In this document: one piece after another, positions 29,795 to 35,637 of the stretch | How the letters are laid out: the number at the start of each line of letters is the position of its first letter | How positions within the stretch are numbered: position 1 is the first letter of the stretch | Assembly: GCA_964389655.1 (NCBI GenBank) | Contig: CAYMED010000013.1 | Location: forward strand, 1 to 64,000 | Length of the DNA: 64,000 nt | Direction: 5' to 3' | From: an uncultured Candidatus Poseidoniales archaeon | Lineage (GTDB): Archaea; Thermoplasmatota; Poseidoniia; Poseidoniales; CAYMED01 | The notes under the pieces: model-generated | Database searches by the model: none | The model's input: the letters and a program-made list of their open reading frames with translations, nothing else | What the model was told of the DNA's origin: nothing | Made by a program: the position numbers and the translations under genes

Positions 29795-30253
29795 GTGAAA
29801 GAAGAACCATGGTGGTCTGCTGGCCTCCATTTCAAGTGCGAAAGTGACTGCGGCCGTTGTTGCTCCAATGAAGGGGGGCTTGTTTTCCTAGAAATCGAAG
29901 ATGCTAGGCGCATCTCAAATTACGAAGGCTTGCGCTTGCGTACATGGGCTAGATCACGTACTACCCGTTCAGCAGATGGTCGAATTGTTTTAGGCCACAG
30001 AAGCGATGGGGCTTGCACATATCTGAATCCTGATCAGTCATGCAAAATTTATGAGGTCAAGCCGACGCAGTGCAGTGCATTCCCTTGGTGGCAAGAAAAC
30101 TTGCGTAATGAAATCTCATGGGGCAAAGTCAAAGCGGATTGTCCTGGTATTGATGCAAATAGTGCACCGCTTATTTCGATGTCTGAAATCAGGAAGTGGG
30201 TGAGTGAAGATCGTCGCGCAACTCGTGGATTTCGTCGAATGCCGCGATCTTGA
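29795..30253 (+). CDS. YkgJ / CxxCxxCC Fe-S or Zn cluster protein
   Basis: CESDCGRCC, CTYL, CKIYEVKPTQCSAFPWW, CPG. Confidence 0.88.
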   Translation: MKEEPWWSAGLHFKCESDCGRCCSNEGGLVFLEIEDARRISNYEGLRLRTWARSRTTRSADGRIVLGHRSDGACTYLNPDQSCKIYEVKPTQCSAFPWWQENLRNEISWGKVKADCPGIDANSAPLISMSEIRKWVSEDRRATRGFRRMPRS

Positions 30254-30254
30254 C

Positions 30255-32102
30255 TTATTCATCAGGGGTGAGAATGCGAATTGGATAAAGGAATGCTTTT
30301 CCCTCATCCAACAATTCTTCAGCCTTTACCCGACTACGATCAATCATCCAAGGATCGGATGGTTCGAATTCATCCCATGTTCCTGAATCTAGTTCCTCAA
30401 TGTCTCCTTGAATGGAATCAAATCGTGATTTGACCTCTTCAACCTCTTCTTCATTTTCTGCACGTACCAAATCGAGTTGCATGCTTGATAATCCATCGCC
30501 AATTGTCTGTAATATCTCTGATTGTGCTTGTAATGTTCGTGCATGTAGTTCCAATGATTGAAGTGATTTCACCTCAATTGTGTCCTCATTTGCTACTTTT
30601 TCAGATATTGCCCGCCGTTCACGCAACTCATCAGCGAATCGACTTTCTCGACCTGGTACTTCCTCTAATTCTTCCACCACGCCCATGGACGTAGACTCTA
30701 GCGTTGCCTGAGTTGCTGCAATTGCATCTTCGGGCCACAAATTGGGAGTTGTCCATTGATCTTCAAGTTCAATTGAGTCGTCATATTCAATTTCAAGAGT
30801 GGGATCTAGAGTATCTGGCATGGTTCGATCAAGTCCATCTGTGACCATCCTTTCAATGTCAAGATCCTCTTTGAGCAATTCAATTTCTGCTGATGGTACG
30901 GGGGCTTCTCGTCCTTCGAGTAAATCGATCACGTCATCTCGTGCTGTTAGGATTGCACCTCCATCAATTTCATGAGCAACTCGATCGAATGAAGCCAAAG
31001 TAGTTCGAAGGTCCCCATCAGACCAGCGCTGAATTGCTTCAAGATGAGAATCAGTTAATGCTATGCTTCGAATCATTGCTCTTCGACGTAGTAATATAAT
31101 TCGGCTAGCAACTCCAAGTGGGTGAATCTTGATGGGAAGCGCACTGTGTGCAATACGTCCCATTCTGTCTTGATCTAGTTGCTCAGGGTTCCATTGAGCT
31201 GCGGTGAGTATGACTTGGACACCTAAATTAAGGGCGTGATCTAGAACATTACCAATTTGTGCGAGTACGCTTGCACCTCCAATTAATACATCGAGGTCAT
31301 CGACAATTAGCAATGATGTGGAGGACAGTCCTTCATTCCAGCCAAGCGGGATCTCATTGTTCTGCTGCAAAGTTTTTGCATCTATAATTCGAACGTCGTG
31401 AATTGGATCTCTGTGTGCCATTGATGCAGCAGCAGCCCATATGAGGTGGCTCTTCCCCGTTCCTTCAGTACCCACAATAACGAGGGGATTGATGCGGGTT
31501 GATGGGTGATCAAGGACATCTTGGACAGCACGTGTAGCTTCTGCATTTTCAGGTAATGCTGACCAGTGTCGAAATGTCATAGCTTCATTCAGTTGATGAA
31601 TAGGCGGCCAAATTTCTTTTTTTTCTGCGGAGGGTGAATAATGGCCTGTATTTGTCTGTTTTCTTCTCTGCTGGTCCAATACATCCTCCCAAACCATCCG
31701 ACCCGGGCCAGAAAAACCAATGATTTCACTGTTGACGTGCTGATTTAGGTCACTAGAGGTATCGTGTTGTCCATTTTCTTCTTTTTCGGTTGCCCTAGTT
31801 TTTTCTAATTCAATGGGATCTTGTAACCATTCGGGTAAATCTAGTGGCTCAGGAACATGTTTGAGGGTTGGCACATCAAGTGCACTGGCAGGTTCAATGA
31901 CTTGTTCAGTGGGCTTTCCTGCAGGCCGGTTGATCGAACCGATCATGTCGATGAGCCGTGAACCGGGTGGTGCTGGTGTAGGGTTTAATTGTGCCACTGG
32001 AGGACTTGCAAGGCGCTCGCCACGGCGAATTGCCTGTCGTAACTTTGTCCGCACCGGCTCGCTAAGCCGTGTCTTGGTTATCAACGACCCGTTTGCTAAC
32101 AA
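30255..32102 (-). CDS. DnaA/Hda-family AAA+ ATPase domain protein lacking DnaA domain IV
   Basis: LNEAMTF..N, NPLVIVGTEGTGKSHL, LLIVDDLD, QVILTA, GDLR sensor II; acidic coiled-coil-like tail. Confidence 0.8.
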   Translation of the reverse strand: MLANGSLITKTRLSEPVRTKLRQAIRRGERLASPPVAQLNPTPAPPGSRLIDMIGSINRPAGKPTEQVIEPASALDVPTLKHVPEPLDLPEWLQDPIELEKTRATEKEENGQHDTSSDLNQHVNSEIIGFSGPGRMVWEDVLDQQRRKQTNTGHYSPSAEKKEIWPPIHQLNEAMTFRHWSALPENAEATRAVQDVLDHPSTRINPLVIVGTEGTGKSHLIWAAAASMAHRDPIHDVRIIDAKTLQQNNEIPLGWNEGLSSTSLLIVDDLDVLIGGASVLAQIGNVLDHALNLGVQVILTAAQWNPEQLDQDRMGRIAHSALPIKIHPLGVASRIILLRRRAMIRSIALTDSHLEAIQRWSDGDLRTTLASFDRVAHEIDGGAILTARDDVIDLLEGREAPVPSAEIELLKEDLDIERMVTDGLDRTMPDTLDPTLEIEYDDSIELEDQWTTPNLWPEDAIAATQATLESTSMGVVEELEEVPGRESRFADELRERRAISEKVANEDTIEVKSLQSLELHARTLQAQSEILQTIGDGLSSMQLDLVRAENEEEVEEVKSRFDSIQGDIEELDSGTWDEFEPSDPWMIDRSRVKAEELLDEGKAFLYPIRILTPDE

Positions 32103-32117
32103 TGTGAATTATTCGAT

Positions 32118-34220
32118 TCAATCCGTGAGACCATCACGCCATACAGGGGGTCCTCGATATTGCTCCTTTTTGTGAGATGACCTCAAAATAGCGTCTTGCC
32201 CAATTTTTGGCGTCTCGGCTATTGGTTCAGAAGGAAGGTTAAGTGGCTCTACCGATTTTGCACTTTTAATCGCAGCTTTCCATTCTGCATGATCTGGTTG
32301 ATTCAAATCGATAATTCCGATGCCAAGATGGGGGGATGACCTTGCCTTGATTGCATCCATCTCCCTAGCAGGTGGCAAAATGGGGTCAATAACACCAATT
32401 TCCATTGGTTCTGTATTTTCGATATTTCCTTCATACAACCGTGGTCTTTCTGCATGAGTATGGATTTCTAAGTCCGGAATTTCAGGTGCACTCGCAGCAG
32501 CTGCACGCGACCCGCTCACCGTGATTTCATGTTCATCTAGCCCTTGTTTCACTCCCGAAGGACGGCGACCAGGCCGGTGATTGACAGTTGCAGCGATTGG
32601 AGTTTTGGGATGAACAGTTTCAATTTTCGTTTCAAGAGTGGCTATGTCTGTGAGATTTTCATGATCTTGTATGCTCTGATCAGAGCTTCCAATTTCTAGA
32701 GGTACTTCTTCTAGGATTACTTTTGGTGTTGGCTCAGATACCTGACTTTGTTCATTTTCCTGATCAGTTAATGGCTTGGAGGTTTCTTGAAACATCTCAA
32801 TTTCTTCAACGTTAATTTCCGAATTTAATTCACCAGTCATCGCGATTATTTCAGATTCGGCATGTTTTTTTGCCTCTAGAACTTTTGGAGGATCTGGAAC
32901 TGTTTCTCCATGATCGGCAAAAATAATTGATCGTACAAGATTTGGGTCAACGCGGCTTGCCTTTTCTTCAGATTGCAAAACTAGTGGCTCACTCTTTTCA
33001 TCCAATTGCGAGGAGGTTGGAGTGTGTTGAATAATCTCTTCAGGTGAACTTTTCTCAACTCTTTCATCCTGTACAGGTACTGGAGATTGAATTTGAGGCT
33101 CTTCTTCTCTTTGCGCATTACTGGATTCCTCGGTGCGTTCATCAACGGTCCATTTTGATGTTGCAAAACCGCTATCTAACGCACGACGGACCATTGCATC
33201 ACTCAGCAGGTCTAAAGTCCGCGTGATTCTCTTCCGCTCTTTTCTTTCCCATGCTTCAATATCGAGCGAAAGTAAGAGAATGTGGCCACCCACGCGAATA
33301 AGGTCTGATAGTTTTTCGATAGAATCTATGACACGGTTAGACCCATGCAGTCCTGCAACATGCTCAAGTCCATCTATGATTACCAAAGTTGGTTTGGAAT
33401 GCCATAGTTTGGCTTCTAAATGGTACATCATGCGCTCGGGTGAAGGGTCTAGCACTCCTTCATCATCACTACCTCGGCGGAGGCGATATATCTCACTTGG
33501 TGGAATACCAGCTGCATCTGAATCAGAAAGTGGAGTGCGTGAGATAACATGTACGTTTGCCACTTGTAGAGCTATTTTTGCCAAAGGCAAGAGGTCAGTA
33601 ATTTGTCCATCTTGAAGATAGGCTGAGCCCCATCTAATTTGGTCTCGTGATCGCATGGAGTCATCATCTAGCATTTCGTGCTGCGGGAAACGAAGCATTG
33701 CTGAGGGTTTCTGTGCGGGGAGTTCGACATTTCTTCTTGCAGCATCCTCATCCGTCATCCGTCGCCACCAATCTAGACTTAGTCGCTCAGAGGGCCCAAC
33801 CTTGTCGTCATGCTTTTCCTCTTTCCCACTAGAATTGTCGGCGGGAGTGAGTTGCTGATCAGAAATGGATGTGCTGAGTAATGACGGTGAATGTGCTAAT
33901 ACGGCTTCTGGCCAAACATCGAGGATACCTAATACGTCTATGTCTTCATGAATTGTAATACGGGTTCGCGGGTCAGAAAGGTCGAGGCGAATTCCTTCTA
34001 GAGCTTCAAAACCGGGTTCAAAGACTTCTTTATTTGTGCGCATGGCCAAAACAGCCTTCCCTTCTAAGAAGGCAATTTGACTTGTGATCTCTTCTCCCTT
34101 CAACTGCCCACGTAGATAACAGGTAATTCGCTCACGGATTGCCTTTTGGACCACTTTTTGCAAGGCATTTGGCCCCCCGGCACGCTCTTCGACGATGCGT
34201 CCCCGTGGCAATTCTCTCAT
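32118..34220 (-). CDS. DUF2226-like N-domain + DUF835 domain + long acidic disordered tail
   Basis: MRELPRGRIV start; VISR...LVIIDGLEH...KLSDLI...LLLSLD...ERK (DUF835 pattern); start 34220 or 34229. Confidence 0.7.
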   Translation of the reverse strand: MRELPRGRIVEERAGGPNALQKVVQKAIRERITCYLRGQLKGEEITSQIAFLEGKAVLAMRTNKEVFEPGFEALEGIRLDLSDPRTRITIHEDIDVLGILDVWPEAVLAHSPSLLSTSISDQQLTPADNSSGKEEKHDDKVGPSERLSLDWWRRMTDEDAARRNVELPAQKPSAMLRFPQHEMLDDDSMRSRDQIRWGSAYLQDGQITDLLPLAKIALQVANVHVISRTPLSDSDAAGIPPSEIYRLRRGSDDEGVLDPSPERMMYHLEAKLWHSKPTLVIIDGLEHVAGLHGSNRVIDSIEKLSDLIRVGGHILLLSLDIEAWERKERKRITRTLDLLSDAMVRRALDSGFATSKWTVDERTEESSNAQREEEPQIQSPVPVQDERVEKSSPEEIIQHTPTSSQLDEKSEPLVLQSEEKASRVDPNLVRSIIFADHGETVPDPPKVLEAKKHAESEIIAMTGELNSEINVEEIEMFQETSKPLTDQENEQSQVSEPTPKVILEEVPLEIGSSDQSIQDHENLTDIATLETKIETVHPKTPIAATVNHRPGRRPSGVKQGLDEHEITVSGSRAAAASAPEIPDLEIHTHAERPRLYEGNIENTEPMEIGVIDPILPPAREMDAIKARSSPHLGIGIIDLNQPDHAEWKAAIKSAKSVEPLNLPSEPIAETPKIGQDAILRSSHKKEQYRGPPVWRDGLTD

Positions 34221-34420
34221 ACCGATCATCCTCCGATTACACTGATGGGTCTTCAACAGCACGGATTGAAGTGGGTTGAAAGTGGCTGGTTTAGATATTC
34301 TGATGATTCGCCATGGAATAATCGAGCAAACGTTGTTTGGTAGAACCATCTCCCAAGTTCGTGGATCAGGAATATCTCGCCTCTGTGCCCCTCTCAATTG
34401 TATCTAATTGGCAGGATGGA

Positions 34421-35026
34421 ATGATCGTTTCGCGGGTAGGTGCACTGGTTGCATGTATTGCTTGTCCATTGTCTGTTATCTCCCTTGCCCTTGGACGTCT
34501 TGATCTTGCATTTGCTGAATTAGCATTGACGCTTGTTGCTGCCCCTAGCCTGCTTCGAACGCTGCGTTTACGCCGCGTTGGTTCCTCCATCCGTATCGGG
34601 AATGGCCACATGTGGATTGGGGGCGATGGCCAATCAAATGTCGGAGTGATGTTGAGGAATGGCCATTGGTCTTGGCTTGAAAAACCAGGCCGTCTCGAGA
34701 TATTGCATGACGATTTCCTCAATGAAGATTCACTCAAGTTCCGCTTCGGAGACGAGGAGTCCATCCTTGGAATTCCCTGTCATCAGGGTCGGACGGAGAG
34801 GCGCCTTTGGCTTGCTATTGCAAACACCTGTTTGGCCGAGATGCACCTGATGAGAGATGATGTTTTGCAAGAAGATCCATTCAGCAGTGCACGAGTGCGA
34901 GAAGATCTCGCCGAAGGATTGTTGGAGCGCAAGTGGGATCATACGGAGCCAGGTATATTATCAACATCTATCCGGTATCCCTTTCGTCGTCGACCAACTA
35001 CAACTGTTATAGATGGGGAGGAGTGA
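34421..35026 (+). CDS. Hypothetical 2-TM protein
   Basis: Hydrophobic hairpin then soluble domain; translationally coupled to the next ORF. Confidence 0.6.
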   Translation: MIVSRVGALVACIACPLSVISLALGRLDLAFAELALTLVAAPSLLRTLRLRRVGSSIRIGNGHMWIGGDGQSNVGVMLRNGHWSWLEKPGRLEILHDDFLNEDSLKFRFGDEESILGIPCHQGRTERRLWLAIANTCLAEMHLMRDDVLQEDPFSSARVREDLAEGLLERKWDHTEPGILSTSIRYPFRRRPTTTVIDGEE

Positions 35027-35637
35027 GTGTGCAAAAAATGGGTAGTTCTGACCACTCATCTCAACTTGAATCCTTAGGTAAATATGCAGGTGGGTCTTTA
35101 TCAGCGAGTTTTGCACGTTGGCCTCTTTCTTTGTCCCAGCCCCCGATAATTGCGGCACTTTATGCCCTTTTGATTGGGTTAGCCACTTTTTTGCCTTTAG
35201 GTGTTCAAGTTGGCTTTCAATTTGACATGTGGGTCTATATTTGGGCTGTTGAAACTTCAGCATTCATGCTAGTTTGCGCGTTTGTTGGCAGTGTGTCCCA
35301 GTTTGTGACATCAATGACCATCCGCCCGCCCATCAAAATATCGAAATGGTTGCTTTTTACAGCTCCTTTTGTGGGTATTGCTTTGCGAACAGTTGTGGCT
35401 ACGGGAATGATACCGAGTACGGGCTTTCTTCATATCTCGATTATCCTGTTAATTGGACCTGGACTTGCTTATGTTTGGTTCATATGGGCTCCAAGATGGC
35501 GCATGCTTCAGCGAATGGAAGAAGGGAAATCACCAATTGAAGGCCTTGGGGAGTCAAGTGTTGCTGTGGAACATCACAGGACCGAAGATCTCCATCAAGT
35601 TCTTGATTCGATGGATATTTTGGATGACGATGAGTGA
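35023..35637 (+). CDS. Hypothetical 4-TM membrane protein
   Basis: GTGA start/stop overlap; four hydrophobic segments. Confidence 0.65.
   Translation: MSVQKMGSSDHSSQLESLGKYAGGSLSASFARWPLSLSQPPIIAALYALLIGLATFLPLGVQVGFQFDMWVYIWAVETSAFMLVCAFVGSVSQFVTSMTIRPPIKISKWLLFTAPFVGIALRTVVATGMIPSTGFLHISIILLIGPGLAYVWFIWAPRWRMLQRMEEGKSPIEGLGESSVAVEHHRTEDLHQVLDSMDILDDDE

What the first reader, a model, noticed from the sequence alone, without database searches (positions are those of the whole stretch)
30255..34229. Candidate new archaeal module: DnaA-type AAA+ ATPase without a DNA-binding domain, in an apparent operon with a DUF2226-like/DUF835 protein
Seen: the 615-aa ORF follows bacterial DnaA domain III motif by motif: LNEAMTF..N (~LNPKYTF..N), NPLVIVGTEGTGKSHL, LLIVDDLD, QVILTA (sensor I), DRMGRI (box VII-like), SRIILLRRRA and GDLR (sensor II Arg). 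Domains I and IV are replaced by a Pro/acidic N-terminus and an acidic coiled-coil-like tail. The gene starts 15 bp after a co-directional gene with a DUF2226-like domain, a DUF835 domain and a long disordered tail. Established: archaea initiate replication with Orc1/Cdc6, not DnaA, and DnaA/Hda domain III forms ATP-dependent oligomers. Inference: this is a repurposed DnaA-clade oligomerising switch paired with a P-loop-derived partner for signalling, polarity or cell-cycle control, rather than an initiator.
Basis: partly seen in the sequence, partly recalled or inferred. Interest (0 to 1): 0.78.

Follow-up and report, generated by a model that had tools for sequence, protein, structure and literature searches.

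The report
Degenerate DnaA-like gene trio, Poseidoniales
A marine group II archaeon carries a conserved three-gene unit built around the ATPase core of the bacterial replication starter DnaA, but the core has no DNA-binding domain and has lost key catalytic residues, so it is probably a scaffold or nucleotide sensor and not a replication initiator.

Summary
Window 30255-32102 (-) encodes a protein whose centre is a true DnaA-type AAA+ domain III, shown by HMM scores, fold and tree. It has no DnaA domain I or IV. It follows a co-directional DUF835 (inactivated KaiC) gene at 32118-34229 (-).

The pair is adjacent in all 29 Poseidoniales loci examined. It occurs in 97 of 151 genomes of the order and is missing from the same small-genome genera. 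A CxxCxxCC gene (29795-30253, +) shares that distribution genus by genus and abuts the DnaA-like gene in 28 of 29 loci, so the unit is a trio.

Other Thermoplasmatota fuse an intact DnaA core to DUF835 in one protein, which links the two domains independently.

- the arginine finger is absent in 26 of 26 family members;
- the Walker A lysine is replaced in 12 of 26;
- the initiator-specific insertion is shortened.

The "DUF2226-like" label is not supported.

The genome keeps two Orc1/Cdc6 genes elsewhere, and trio-less relatives keep theirs too, so this is not an initiator.

I found no paper on the family. This scan has noted the family before on other DNA, in at least 38 genomes, including this same Poseidoniales trio. 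Its function remains unknown.

The parts
30255..32102 (-). DnaA-like gene. Maximal ORF is 615 aa from TTG 32102. Alternative in-frame starts are TTG 32084 and GTG 32054, the last giving the 599-aa database form P0003.
30903..31625 (-). DnaA-type AAA+ domain III with lid (residues about 160-400). Walker A is GTEGTGKSH, Walker B is LLIVDD, and the sensor II Arg is present. The arginine finger is absent and the initiator-specific insertion is shortened.
   Evidence: match at 30906-31622; pLDDT about 90
31626..32102 (-). N-terminal region, predicted to be mostly disordered. It carries short family-conserved motifs: a helix LxxAIxxxRxxL, GRxxWxxVLDxQR, and WPP at the domain boundary.
30384..30734 (-). 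C-terminal acidic region predicted as long helices (P0003 residues 441-557). It is followed by the conserved tail motifs DEFxPxxxW and ILxP..E. No HTH or DnaA domain IV is present.
32118..34229 (-). Partner gene (703 aa from ATG 34229; orthologues suggest the Met at 34220). It has a small N-domain, a DUF835 domain and a long tail of low conservation.
33912..34199 (-). Partner N-terminal alpha/beta domain of about 95 aa, confidently modelled. No family could be assigned (DUF2226 and PatA_N are leads only).
33171..33629 (-). DUF835 domain with a RecA/KaiC-like fold and no Walker A motif (inactivated KaiC).
   Evidence: (match at 33216-33575)
32118..33065 (-). Partner C-terminal tail of about 315 aa. 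It is Pro/Glu/Ser-rich and poorly conserved, with a few conserved islands in orthologues. It was not modelled.
29795..30253 (+). CxxCxxCC (YkgJ-type Cys-cluster) gene, convergent with the DnaA-like gene and ending 1 bp from it. It is the third member of the co-inherited unit.

Best explanation
This is the Poseidoniales (marine group II) version of a Thermoplasmatota-wide module that couples a DnaA-type AAA+ core to an inactivated KaiC-like DUF835 domain. Here the module is split into two adjacent genes, DUF835 protein first and DnaA-like protein second. A CxxCxxCC cysteine-cluster gene accompanies them, and the three are inherited and lost together.

The DnaA-like protein keeps the fold and the DnaA-specific N-terminal signature of domain III. 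It has lost what makes DnaA an ATP-driven filament: the trans-acting arginine finger, Asp269 and part of the initiator-specific insertion. In about half of the lineages the Walker A lysine is gone as well.

I infer that it acts as a non-hydrolysing scaffold. In copies like this window's, which keep GKS, DD and the sensor II Arg, it may at most sense bound nucleotide. I infer that it forms a complex with the dead-KaiC partner, and that the disordered tails with conserved short motifs recruit other proteins. It is a regulatory or assembly adaptor, not a replication initiator.

Shown: homology, motif states, linkage, co-loss, fusions elsewhere. Inferred: complex formation, loss of ATPase activity, adaptor role.
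For: DnaA-clade identity:
- HMM scores.
- The family profile scores bacterial DnaA at 107-131 bits, against Hda 29, DnaC 20 and Orc1/Cdc6 4.5 or less.
- In the tree the family is monophyletic (100%) inside the DnaA radiation, and Orc is split off at 100%.
- The AF2 model's best fold matches are DnaA domain III: 2z4r (E 3.8e-13, TM 0.79) and 8bv3 (TM 0.82).

Motif decay:
- Arg finger 0/26, Asp269 1/26, Walker A Lys 14/26 (Arg 8, Thr 2, Cys 1, Gly 1).
- The initiator-specific insertion is gapped in 24/26.
- 14 other Thermoplasmatota homologues keep all of these motifs.

Linkage:
- The partner lies directly upstream in 29/29 loci, mostly with overlapping stop and start.
- The genus-by-genus presence pattern is the same for the DnaA-like and CxxCxxCC genes (97/151). 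The partner is absent from the same genera (89/151 with a single query).
- CxxCxxCC abuts the DnaA-like gene in 28/29 loci.

Fusions and adjacency elsewhere:
- HEAT-DnaA-DUF835-Zn ribbon (1223 aa) and X-DnaA-lid-DUF835 (743 aa).
- An Atlas cluster of 115 archaeal proteins carries Bac_DnaA and DUF835 together.
- A DnaA-like gene is followed by a DUF835 gene in L070.

Partner: DUF835 has a RecA/KaiC fold without a P-loop (FlaH Z 13.1). It is described as the 'iKaiC' output domain of archaeal response regulators (PMC5847659).

Not an initiator.

Maintained: an intact ORF without stops in all 97 genomes.
Against: - No direct evidence shows that the proteins bind each other or that ATPase activity is lost.
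- This window's own copy keeps an intact P-loop, Walker B DD, a sensor I Thr/Ser and the sensor II Arg. It could therefore still bind, and perhaps slowly hydrolyse, ATP.
- Wider synteny around the locus is also conserved (citrate synthase, GDPD, TatC, aminotransferase), so adjacency alone is weak evidence. The co-loss pattern involves related, streamlined genera and may amount to few independent events.
- The tree does not resolve whether the family descends from the fused Thermoplasmatota form. One clade is not rejected (p-AU 0.71), but that does not demonstrate it.
Confidence: 0.55

Rival explanations
1. This is an active ATP-dependent oligomerising switch. The protein binds ATP, self-assembles like DnaA domain III and signals through its partner.
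For: - This window's copy keeps GTGKSH, LLIVDD, a sensor I Thr and the sensor II Arg.
- Fused relatives in other Thermoplasmatota keep every catalytic motif (13-14 of 14) and plausibly work this way.
Against: - The arginine finger that completes the DnaA ATP site in trans is replaced by Leu, Ala, Val, Ile or Phe in 26 of 26 members.
- Asp269 is lost in 25 of 26.
- The Walker A Lys is replaced in 12 of 26 orthologues that are otherwise conserved and still linked to the same partner, so the conserved function cannot depend on it.
- The initiator-specific insertion that shapes the DnaA helical filament is shortened.
Confidence: 0.2
2. It is a replication-linked regulator, an archaeal analogue of Hda that modulates Orc1/Cdc6, MCM or PCNA.
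For: - It has domain III only, as Hda does.
- It shares Hda-like traits: a short initiator-specific insertion, and GxGRSHL in several orthologues, which matches E. coli Hda.
- Hda structures are the second-best fold matches.
Against: - The family profile gives Hda only 29 bits against 107-131 for DnaA.
- Hda keeps its arginine finger; this family does not.
- None of 20 members has a PIP-box-like motif.
- In the closed MG-II genome the locus is 308 kb and 818 kb from the two Orc1/Cdc6 genes. Genomes without the trio keep both initiators.
- The partner domain belongs to signalling architectures (REC, PAS, HisKA_7TM, V4R).
Confidence: 0.1
3. It is a regulator of type IV pilus or archaellum-type (T2SSE ATPase) surface machines. 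The FlaH-like DUF835 domain would dock on such an ATPase.
For: - In another Thermoplasmatota genome a DnaA core is fused to a T2SSE ATPase inside a pilin/T2SSF locus.
- The best structural match of the DUF835 domain is the archaellum protein FlaH (Z 13.1).
- All 15 trio-bearing genera carry 2-4 T2SSE genes, and 5 of 7 trio-less genera have none.
Against: - Two trio-less genera keep a T2SSE gene.
- The correlation is confounded by genome streamlining and relatedness.
- No T2SSE, pilin or archaellum gene lies near the trio in this window or in the 29 loci.
- RecA and KaiC score nearly as well as FlaH.
Confidence: 0.1
4. There is no functional unit: a decaying horizontally acquired DnaA fragment merely sits in a syntenic block.
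For: - Catalytic motifs have decayed.
- The surrounding synteny is also conserved.
Against: - Intact ORFs occur in 97 of 97 carrier genomes spanning 25-50% identity.
- Non-catalytic residues are invariant (W, WPP, NPL, G, DD).
- Stop and start overlap.
- All three genes are co-lost.
- The same two domains are fused independently elsewhere.
Confidence: 0.03

Closest known systems
Bacterial replication initiator DnaA, domain III (Pfam PF00308; TIGR00362; PDB 2Z4R, 8BV3, 8BTG, 2HCB/3R8F)
   Same: - AAA+ fold with lid, and the DnaA-specific N-terminal signature (TF..W/F...EN..A...NPL..G..G.GK[ST]HL).
- Walker B is 'DD' rather than 'DE'.
- The box VII first Arg and the sensor II Arg are mostly kept.
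- These are the best sequence and fold matches.
   Different: - No domain I and no domain IV HTH.
- The arginine finger and Asp269 are absent.
- The initiator-specific insertion is about 7 residues shorter.
- The Walker A Lys is variable across the family.
- TIGR00362 scores 70 bits against a cut-off of 344.
- The host is an archaeon with Orc1/Cdc6 initiators.
Hda, the DnaA-inactivating paralogue (TIGR03420; PDB 5X06, 3BOS)
   Same: - A DnaA-derived protein with domain III only.
- A short initiator-specific insertion.
- E. coli Hda has GAGRSHL, as in several orthologues of this family.
   Different: - Hda keeps the arginine finger and the 'DR' Asp.
- By established knowledge Hda has an N-terminal beta-clamp-binding motif and acts on DnaA-ATP. 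None of these applies here.
- TIGR03420 scores 52 bits against a cut-off of 195, and the family profile gives Hda 29 bits.
Uncharacterised Thermoplasmatota DnaA-core/DUF835 fusion proteins (for example L071, 743 aa; L066, 1223 aa; an ESM Atlas cluster of 115 members with PF00308 and PF05763)
   Same: - The same two domains in the same phylum.
- No DnaA domain IV.
- Zinc-binding or Cys-rich elements are associated.
- A single clade with this family is not rejected (p-AU 0.71).
   Different: - They are fused in one chain in the order DnaA then DUF835, whereas here DUF835 comes first and in a separate gene.
- Their Bac_DnaA scores are 200-242 bits and all catalytic motifs are intact.
- They often occur in several copies per genome.
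DUF835 / 'iKaiC' output domains of archaeal response regulators (Galperin et al. 2018, PMC5847659) and FlaH/ArlH (PDB 4YDS)
   Same: - The partner's DUF835 domain has the RecA/KaiC-like fold (Z 13.1 to FlaH).
- It lacks a P-loop.
   Different: - There is no REC, PAS or HisKA domain here.
- Instead it has an unassigned 95-aa N-domain and a tail of about 315 aa.
- It is paired with a DnaA-like protein.
Bacterial tandem Bac_DnaA-Bac_DnaA proteins of about 650 aa (for example P0045, next to a PatA_N-TPR gene)
   Same: DnaA domain III is used outside replication initiation, without domain IV.
   Different: - They are bacterial.
- They have two intact AAA+ modules in one chain.
- They have no DUF835.

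Membership tests
DnaA clade of AAA+ (Bac_DnaA, PF00308) | Domain III sequence profile above the family threshold, and closer to DnaA than to Orc1/Cdc6, DnaC/IstB or RFC | tested here: met
   - PF00308 scores 41.9 bits against a cut-off of 23.
- The family profile scores DnaA at 107-131 bits, Hda 29, DnaC 20 and Orc 4.5 or less.
- Tree and fold matches agree.
Chromosomal initiator DnaA (TIGR00362 equivalog) | Full-length score above the equivalog cut-off | tested here: not met
   70.3 bits against a cut-off of 343.9
Chromosomal initiator DnaA (TIGR00362 equivalog) | Domain IV helix-turn-helix that reads DnaA boxes (PF08299), and domain I (PF11638) | tested here: not met
   Neither gives a hit at E<=1. 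The C-terminus is modelled as long helices. True bacterial DnaAs in the same search carry both domains.
Chromosomal initiator DnaA (TIGR00362 equivalog) | Box VII arginine finger (E. coli R285) and Asp269 | tested here: not met
   0/26 and 1/26 in the family. The window has Ile and Gln/Ala-type residues at these positions.
Chromosomal initiator DnaA (TIGR00362 equivalog) | Walker A GxxGxGK[ST] and Walker B hhhhDD | tested here: met
   The window has GTEGTGKSH and LLIVDD. Across the family Lys is kept in only 14/26 and DD in 24/26.
Hda (TIGR03420) | Score above the cut-off, an arginine finger, and a clamp-binding motif | tested here: not met
   51.9 bits against a cut-off of 194.8. The arginine finger is absent. 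No PIP-like motif occurs in 20 members. The bacterial beta-clamp motif is not applicable to an archaeon.
Orc1/Cdc6 (TIGR02928) | Profile match | tested here: not met
   It is not among the NCBIfam hits at E<=1. The genome's two true Orc1/Cdc6 genes lie on contigs C1 and C8. A 100% branch separates them in the tree.
IstB/DnaC helicase-loader clade | Profile match above the cut-off | tested here: not met
   IstB NF038214 scores 17.1 bits against a cut-off of 200. The family profile gives E. coli DnaC 20 bits.
DUF835 / iKaiC (PF05763), for the partner | Profile match, and a RecA/KaiC-like fold lacking the P-loop | tested here: met
   - 33.5 bits against a cut-off of 33.1.
- 18/20 orthologues match, best E 1.3e-19.
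- hhalign gives 99% probability to a bona fide DUF835 protein.
- FlaH Z 13.1.
- No GK[ST] follows strand 1.
DUF2226 (PF09987), for the partner's N-domain | Profile match | tested here: inconclusive
   No hit at E<=1 in 20 orthologues. The family was not found in 121 genomes of the phylum. The only support is an ESM-feature lead of 0.87, with PatA_N at 0.84. The N-domain could not be fold-searched on its own.
CxxCxxCC / YkgJ (PF03692), for the third gene | Profile match | tested here: met
   43.4 bits against a cut-off of 23

The most novel reading that the evidence does not exclude
Thermoplasmatota archaea use the bacterial-type DnaA ATPase core, coupled to a dead KaiC domain, as a general ATP-driven assembly switch. 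Poseidoniales, among the most abundant planktonic archaea, keep a catalytically dead three-protein derivative: pseudo-DnaA, pseudo-KaiC and a Cys-cluster protein. This derivative acts as a pseudo-enzyme regulator of T2SSE-type surface-filament machines or another cell-surface or cell-cycle process. That would be a new, non-replicative biology for the DnaA fold in archaea.
Probability: 0.15. Interest if true: 0.8.

Novelty: new variant of a known kind. Interest (0 to 1): 0.6.

Why it matters
DnaA domain III is textbook bacterial replication machinery. Finding it conserved in single copy across most Poseidoniales, and in intact fused forms across other Thermoplasmatota, shows that the fold has a second, non-replicative use in archaea.

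The Poseidoniales branch offers a natural series from Lys-type to Arg/Cys/Gly/Thr-type P-loops, all without an arginine finger. This series could show how an AAA+ switch turns into a pseudo-ATPase while keeping its partners. Because the trio is dispensable in streamlined genera, it marks an accessory physiology of marine group II archaea that nobody has characterised. I found no paper describing the family in the searchable library.

Tried and rejected
- **Complex prediction:** Complex prediction of the partner (A4, 387 aa) with the full DnaA-like protein (A1, 599 aa) gave no verdict (score 0.00, controls not run). I do not use it either way.
- **Sequencing runs:** The look-up of sequencing runs listed only marine metagenome DNA holders and no RNA holder, so expression and co-transcription could not be examined.
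- **Partner N-domain:**
  - Pfam found nothing.
  - DUF2226 was absent from 121 phylum genomes, so no profile-profile test could be built.
  - hhalign of A4 against the fused protein L071 and against the L070 DUF835 protein aligned only the DUF835 part.
- **Related loci:** The search for related loci with alignment A2 failed because no stretch was conserved enough. With P0003 it found nothing. A third query served only to name the order.
- **Origin proximity:** rejected by positions in the closed genome.
- **PCNA-binding PIP box:** none found.
- **T2SSE co-occurrence:** only partial.
- **Divergent 229-aa neighbour as a fourth component:** inconclusive. It was detected in 16 of 61 genomes with one query, always next to the pair.
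- **Neighbours of the fused homologues:** heterogeneous (HEAT, TPR, STAND, Zn ribbon, GNAT, housekeeping genes), with no consistent functional clue.
- **Literature:** searches on DnaA with MGII, Thermoplasmatota or Euryarchaeota, on Bac_DnaA with archaea, on KaiC-like with DnaA, and on Poseidoniales with Orc1 found no description of this family. The 'DnaA-like' archaeal proteins in the literature are fusellovirus or mobile-element ATPases, a different matter.

Full report
**What is there**

Two co-directional minus-strand ORFs fill 30255-34397.
- The upstream ORF (32118-34397 maximal; orthologues indicate a start at 34229 or 34220) is the partner.
- The partner's TGA stop is at 32118-32120. 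A TTG follows 15 nt later at 32102. In-frame alternatives are TTG 32084 and GTG 32054, and the database representative P0003 (599 aa) uses the last.
- A third gene, 29795-30253 on the plus strand, converges on the DnaA-like gene and ends 1 bp from it. It is a CxxCxxCC (PF03692) protein at 43.4 bits.

**Is the AAA+ domain really DnaA-type?** Yes.
- Pfam Bac_DnaA scores 41.9 bits against a cut-off of 23. NCBIfam DnaA scores 70 bits and Hda 52 bits. IstB, RFC and ZapE score about 17, and Orc/Cdc6 does not appear.
- The Pfam model also rings in three archaeal control genomes, so I tested further.
- A profile of 26 family cores (A2) scores 19 bacterial DnaAs at 107-131 bits, E. coli Hda at 29, E. 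coli DnaC at 20, and 13 Orc1/Cdc6 proteins from this genome and phylum at 4.5 or less.
- In an IQ-TREE of 84 cores, Orc1/Cdc6 is split off by a branch with 100% support. The family is monophyletic (100%) on a long stem inside an unresolved bush of bacterial DnaA and other archaeal DnaA-like cores.
- The AF2 model has pLDDT of about 90 over residues 150-385. Its best fold matches are DnaA domain III (2z4r, E 3.8e-13, TM 0.79; 8bv3, TM 0.82), then Hda, then RFC and Orc.
- No DnaA domain I or IV is detectable. The N-terminus is predicted to be disordered with short conserved motifs, and the C-terminus forms long helices.

**State of the ATPase site**

I aligned the family to E. coli DnaA.

| Feature | Poseidoniales family | This window's copy |
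|---|---|---|
| Arginine finger (R285) | 0/26, always hydrophobic | absent |
| Asp269 | 1/26 | absent |
| Initiator-specific insertion around V211 | gapped in 24/26 | shortened |
| Walker A Lys | 14/26 (Arg 8, Thr 2, Cys 1, Gly 1) | kept (GTGKSH) |
| Walker B DD | 24/26 | kept (LLIVDD) |
| Box VII first Arg (R281) | 16/26 | kept |
| Sensor II Arg | 17/26 | kept |

Whatever function is conserved across the family cannot require the P-loop lysine or trans-activated hydrolysis.

**Distribution and linkage**

The genome belongs to Candidatus Poseidoniales. A relative from the same order search is CM001443.1, 'uncultured Ca. Poseidoniales archaeon MG-II'.
- The DnaA-like gene is single-copy in 97 of 151 genomes sampled from the order: 74/74 in one family and 21/75 in another.
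- It was not found in seven genera with 1.3-1.6 Mb genomes, although those genomes are about 86-97% complete.
- The partner follows the same genus pattern and is almost always on the same contig and strand, just upstream.
- In all 29 loci that I extracted, an upstream co-directional ORF abuts or overlaps the DnaA-like start. This includes a genus where the partner is too divergent for BLAST.
- The CxxCxxCC gene abuts the 3' end in 28 of 29 loci. It is co-directional with a 4-bp overlap in one family and convergent in this window's lineage.
- Its presence pattern equals that of the DnaA-like gene genus by genus, 97/151.
- The unit is therefore three genes that are inherited and lost together. 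Because the losses lie in related streamlined genera, they may represent few events.

**Beyond the order**

Searching 301 genomes of the phylum with A2 found 85-120-bit matches in many other Thermoplasmatota families, often several per genome.
- These proteins have very strong Bac_DnaA domains (200-242 bits), no domain IV, and all catalytic motifs intact.
- Their architectures include HEAT-DnaA-DUF835-Zn ribbon (1223 aa), X-DnaA-lid-DUF835 (743 aa), and DnaA-T2SSE inside a pilin/T2SSF locus. A 471-aa DnaA-like gene is followed by a DUF835 gene.
- An ESM Atlas shape search from the partner model returned a 115-member archaeal cluster that carries Bac_DnaA and DUF835 together.
- These fusions are independent evidence that the two domains work together.
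- Constraining Poseidoniales and other Thermoplasmatota cores to one clade is not rejected. The constrained tree had the higher likelihood, with p-AU 0.71.
- In the 1.84-billion-protein library, the next-best hits after the family are bacterial tandem Bac_DnaA proteins of about 650 aa. One sits next to a PatA_N-TPR gene. True DnaAs follow.

**The partner**

AF2 models two confident domains.
- Residues about 200-352 are DUF835 with a RecA/KaiC fold (FlaH Z 13.1; Sso2452, RecA, KaiC and Elp4-6 follow) and no P-loop. This fits its published description as 'iKaiC', an output domain of archaeal response regulators (PMC5847659).
- The Atlas shows DUF835 combined with REC, PAS, HisKA_7TM, V4R and HTH domains.
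- The 95-aa N-domain is well modelled but unassigned. 'DUF2226-like' has no HMM support, and DUF2226 and PatA_N remain language-model leads only.

**Not an initiator**
- The genome has two canonical Orc1/Cdc6 genes on other contigs.
- In the closed MG-II genome the locus lies 308 kb and 818 kb from them. A trio-less closed genome keeps both.
- No PIP-like motif occurs in the family.

**Most likely mechanism (inferred)**

I read the unit as a hetero-complex of a catalytically dead or merely nucleotide-binding DnaA-type AAA+ protein with a dead-KaiC protein and a Cys-cluster protein. Conserved short motifs in the long disordered tails would serve as docking sites. That makes it a regulatory or assembly adaptor derived from an ATP-driven switch that is still intact in other Thermoplasmatota.

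A link to T2SSE-type surface machines is a weak lead. It rests on one fusion, the FlaH-like fold and partial co-occurrence. Complex prediction gave no verdict, and no RNA data were available.

**Novelty**

I found no paper on this family. This scan's earlier notes record the family in at least 38 genomes, including the same Poseidoniales trio. I re-derived the main points independently before or after reading them.

I class the finding as a new variant of a known kind: the DnaA-clade AAA+ domain in an undescribed archaeal, non-initiator, partly pseudo-enzymatic setting.

Noticed in passing
window 34337-35026 (+) and 34933-35637 (+): Two ORFs with no Pfam family (229 and 234 aa) are transcribed divergently from the partner gene. 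Homologues of the first are fast-evolving. One query detected them in 16 of 61 order genomes, always beside the pair and never in trio-less genera. It could be a fourth component or simply a syntenic neighbour.
   Followed up: partly
G000 contig C15:684-1649 (locus L082): The same genome has a second, stand-alone DUF835 protein of 321 aa (Pfam 36.7 bits). Similar paralogues of about 290-320 aa occur in many Poseidoniales genomes.
   Followed up: partly
L068:4856-7297 (another Thermoplasmatota genome, G169): An 813-aa protein fuses an intact DnaA domain III to a type II/IV secretion (T2SSE) ATPase. It sits in a locus with an archaeal pilin, DUF7289 and two T2SSF genes.
   Followed up: partly
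P0044, P0045, P0048 and about 80 more: A large family of proteins of about 650 aa carries two tandem Bac_DnaA domains and no DNA-binding domain. One lies in a clearly bacterial context, directly upstream of PatA_N-TPR genes. IMG labels them 'chromosomal replication initiator', which is probably wrong.
   Followed up: partly
L064, L077, L078 (family f19 genomes): A short form of about 414 aa (unknown 120-aa N-terminus, intact DnaA domain III and lid) sits in conserved synteny with an FMN-dehydrogenase-like gene, an RDD membrane protein, TtuA and a methyltransferase. It was found in 23 of 24 genomes of that family.
   Followed up: partly
order-wide: Five Poseidoniales genera with 1.2-1.6 Mb genomes gave no T2SSE (pilus/archaellum ATPase) match at all, whereas all larger-genome genera have 2-4. 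These same genera lack the trio.
   Followed up: no
L026:28-2892 (G016): One orthologue of the DnaA-like protein is extended to 955 aa. The extra C-terminal part is Cys-rich (zinc-finger-like), followed by a long (EP)n repeat and a Lys-rich tail.
   Followed up: no
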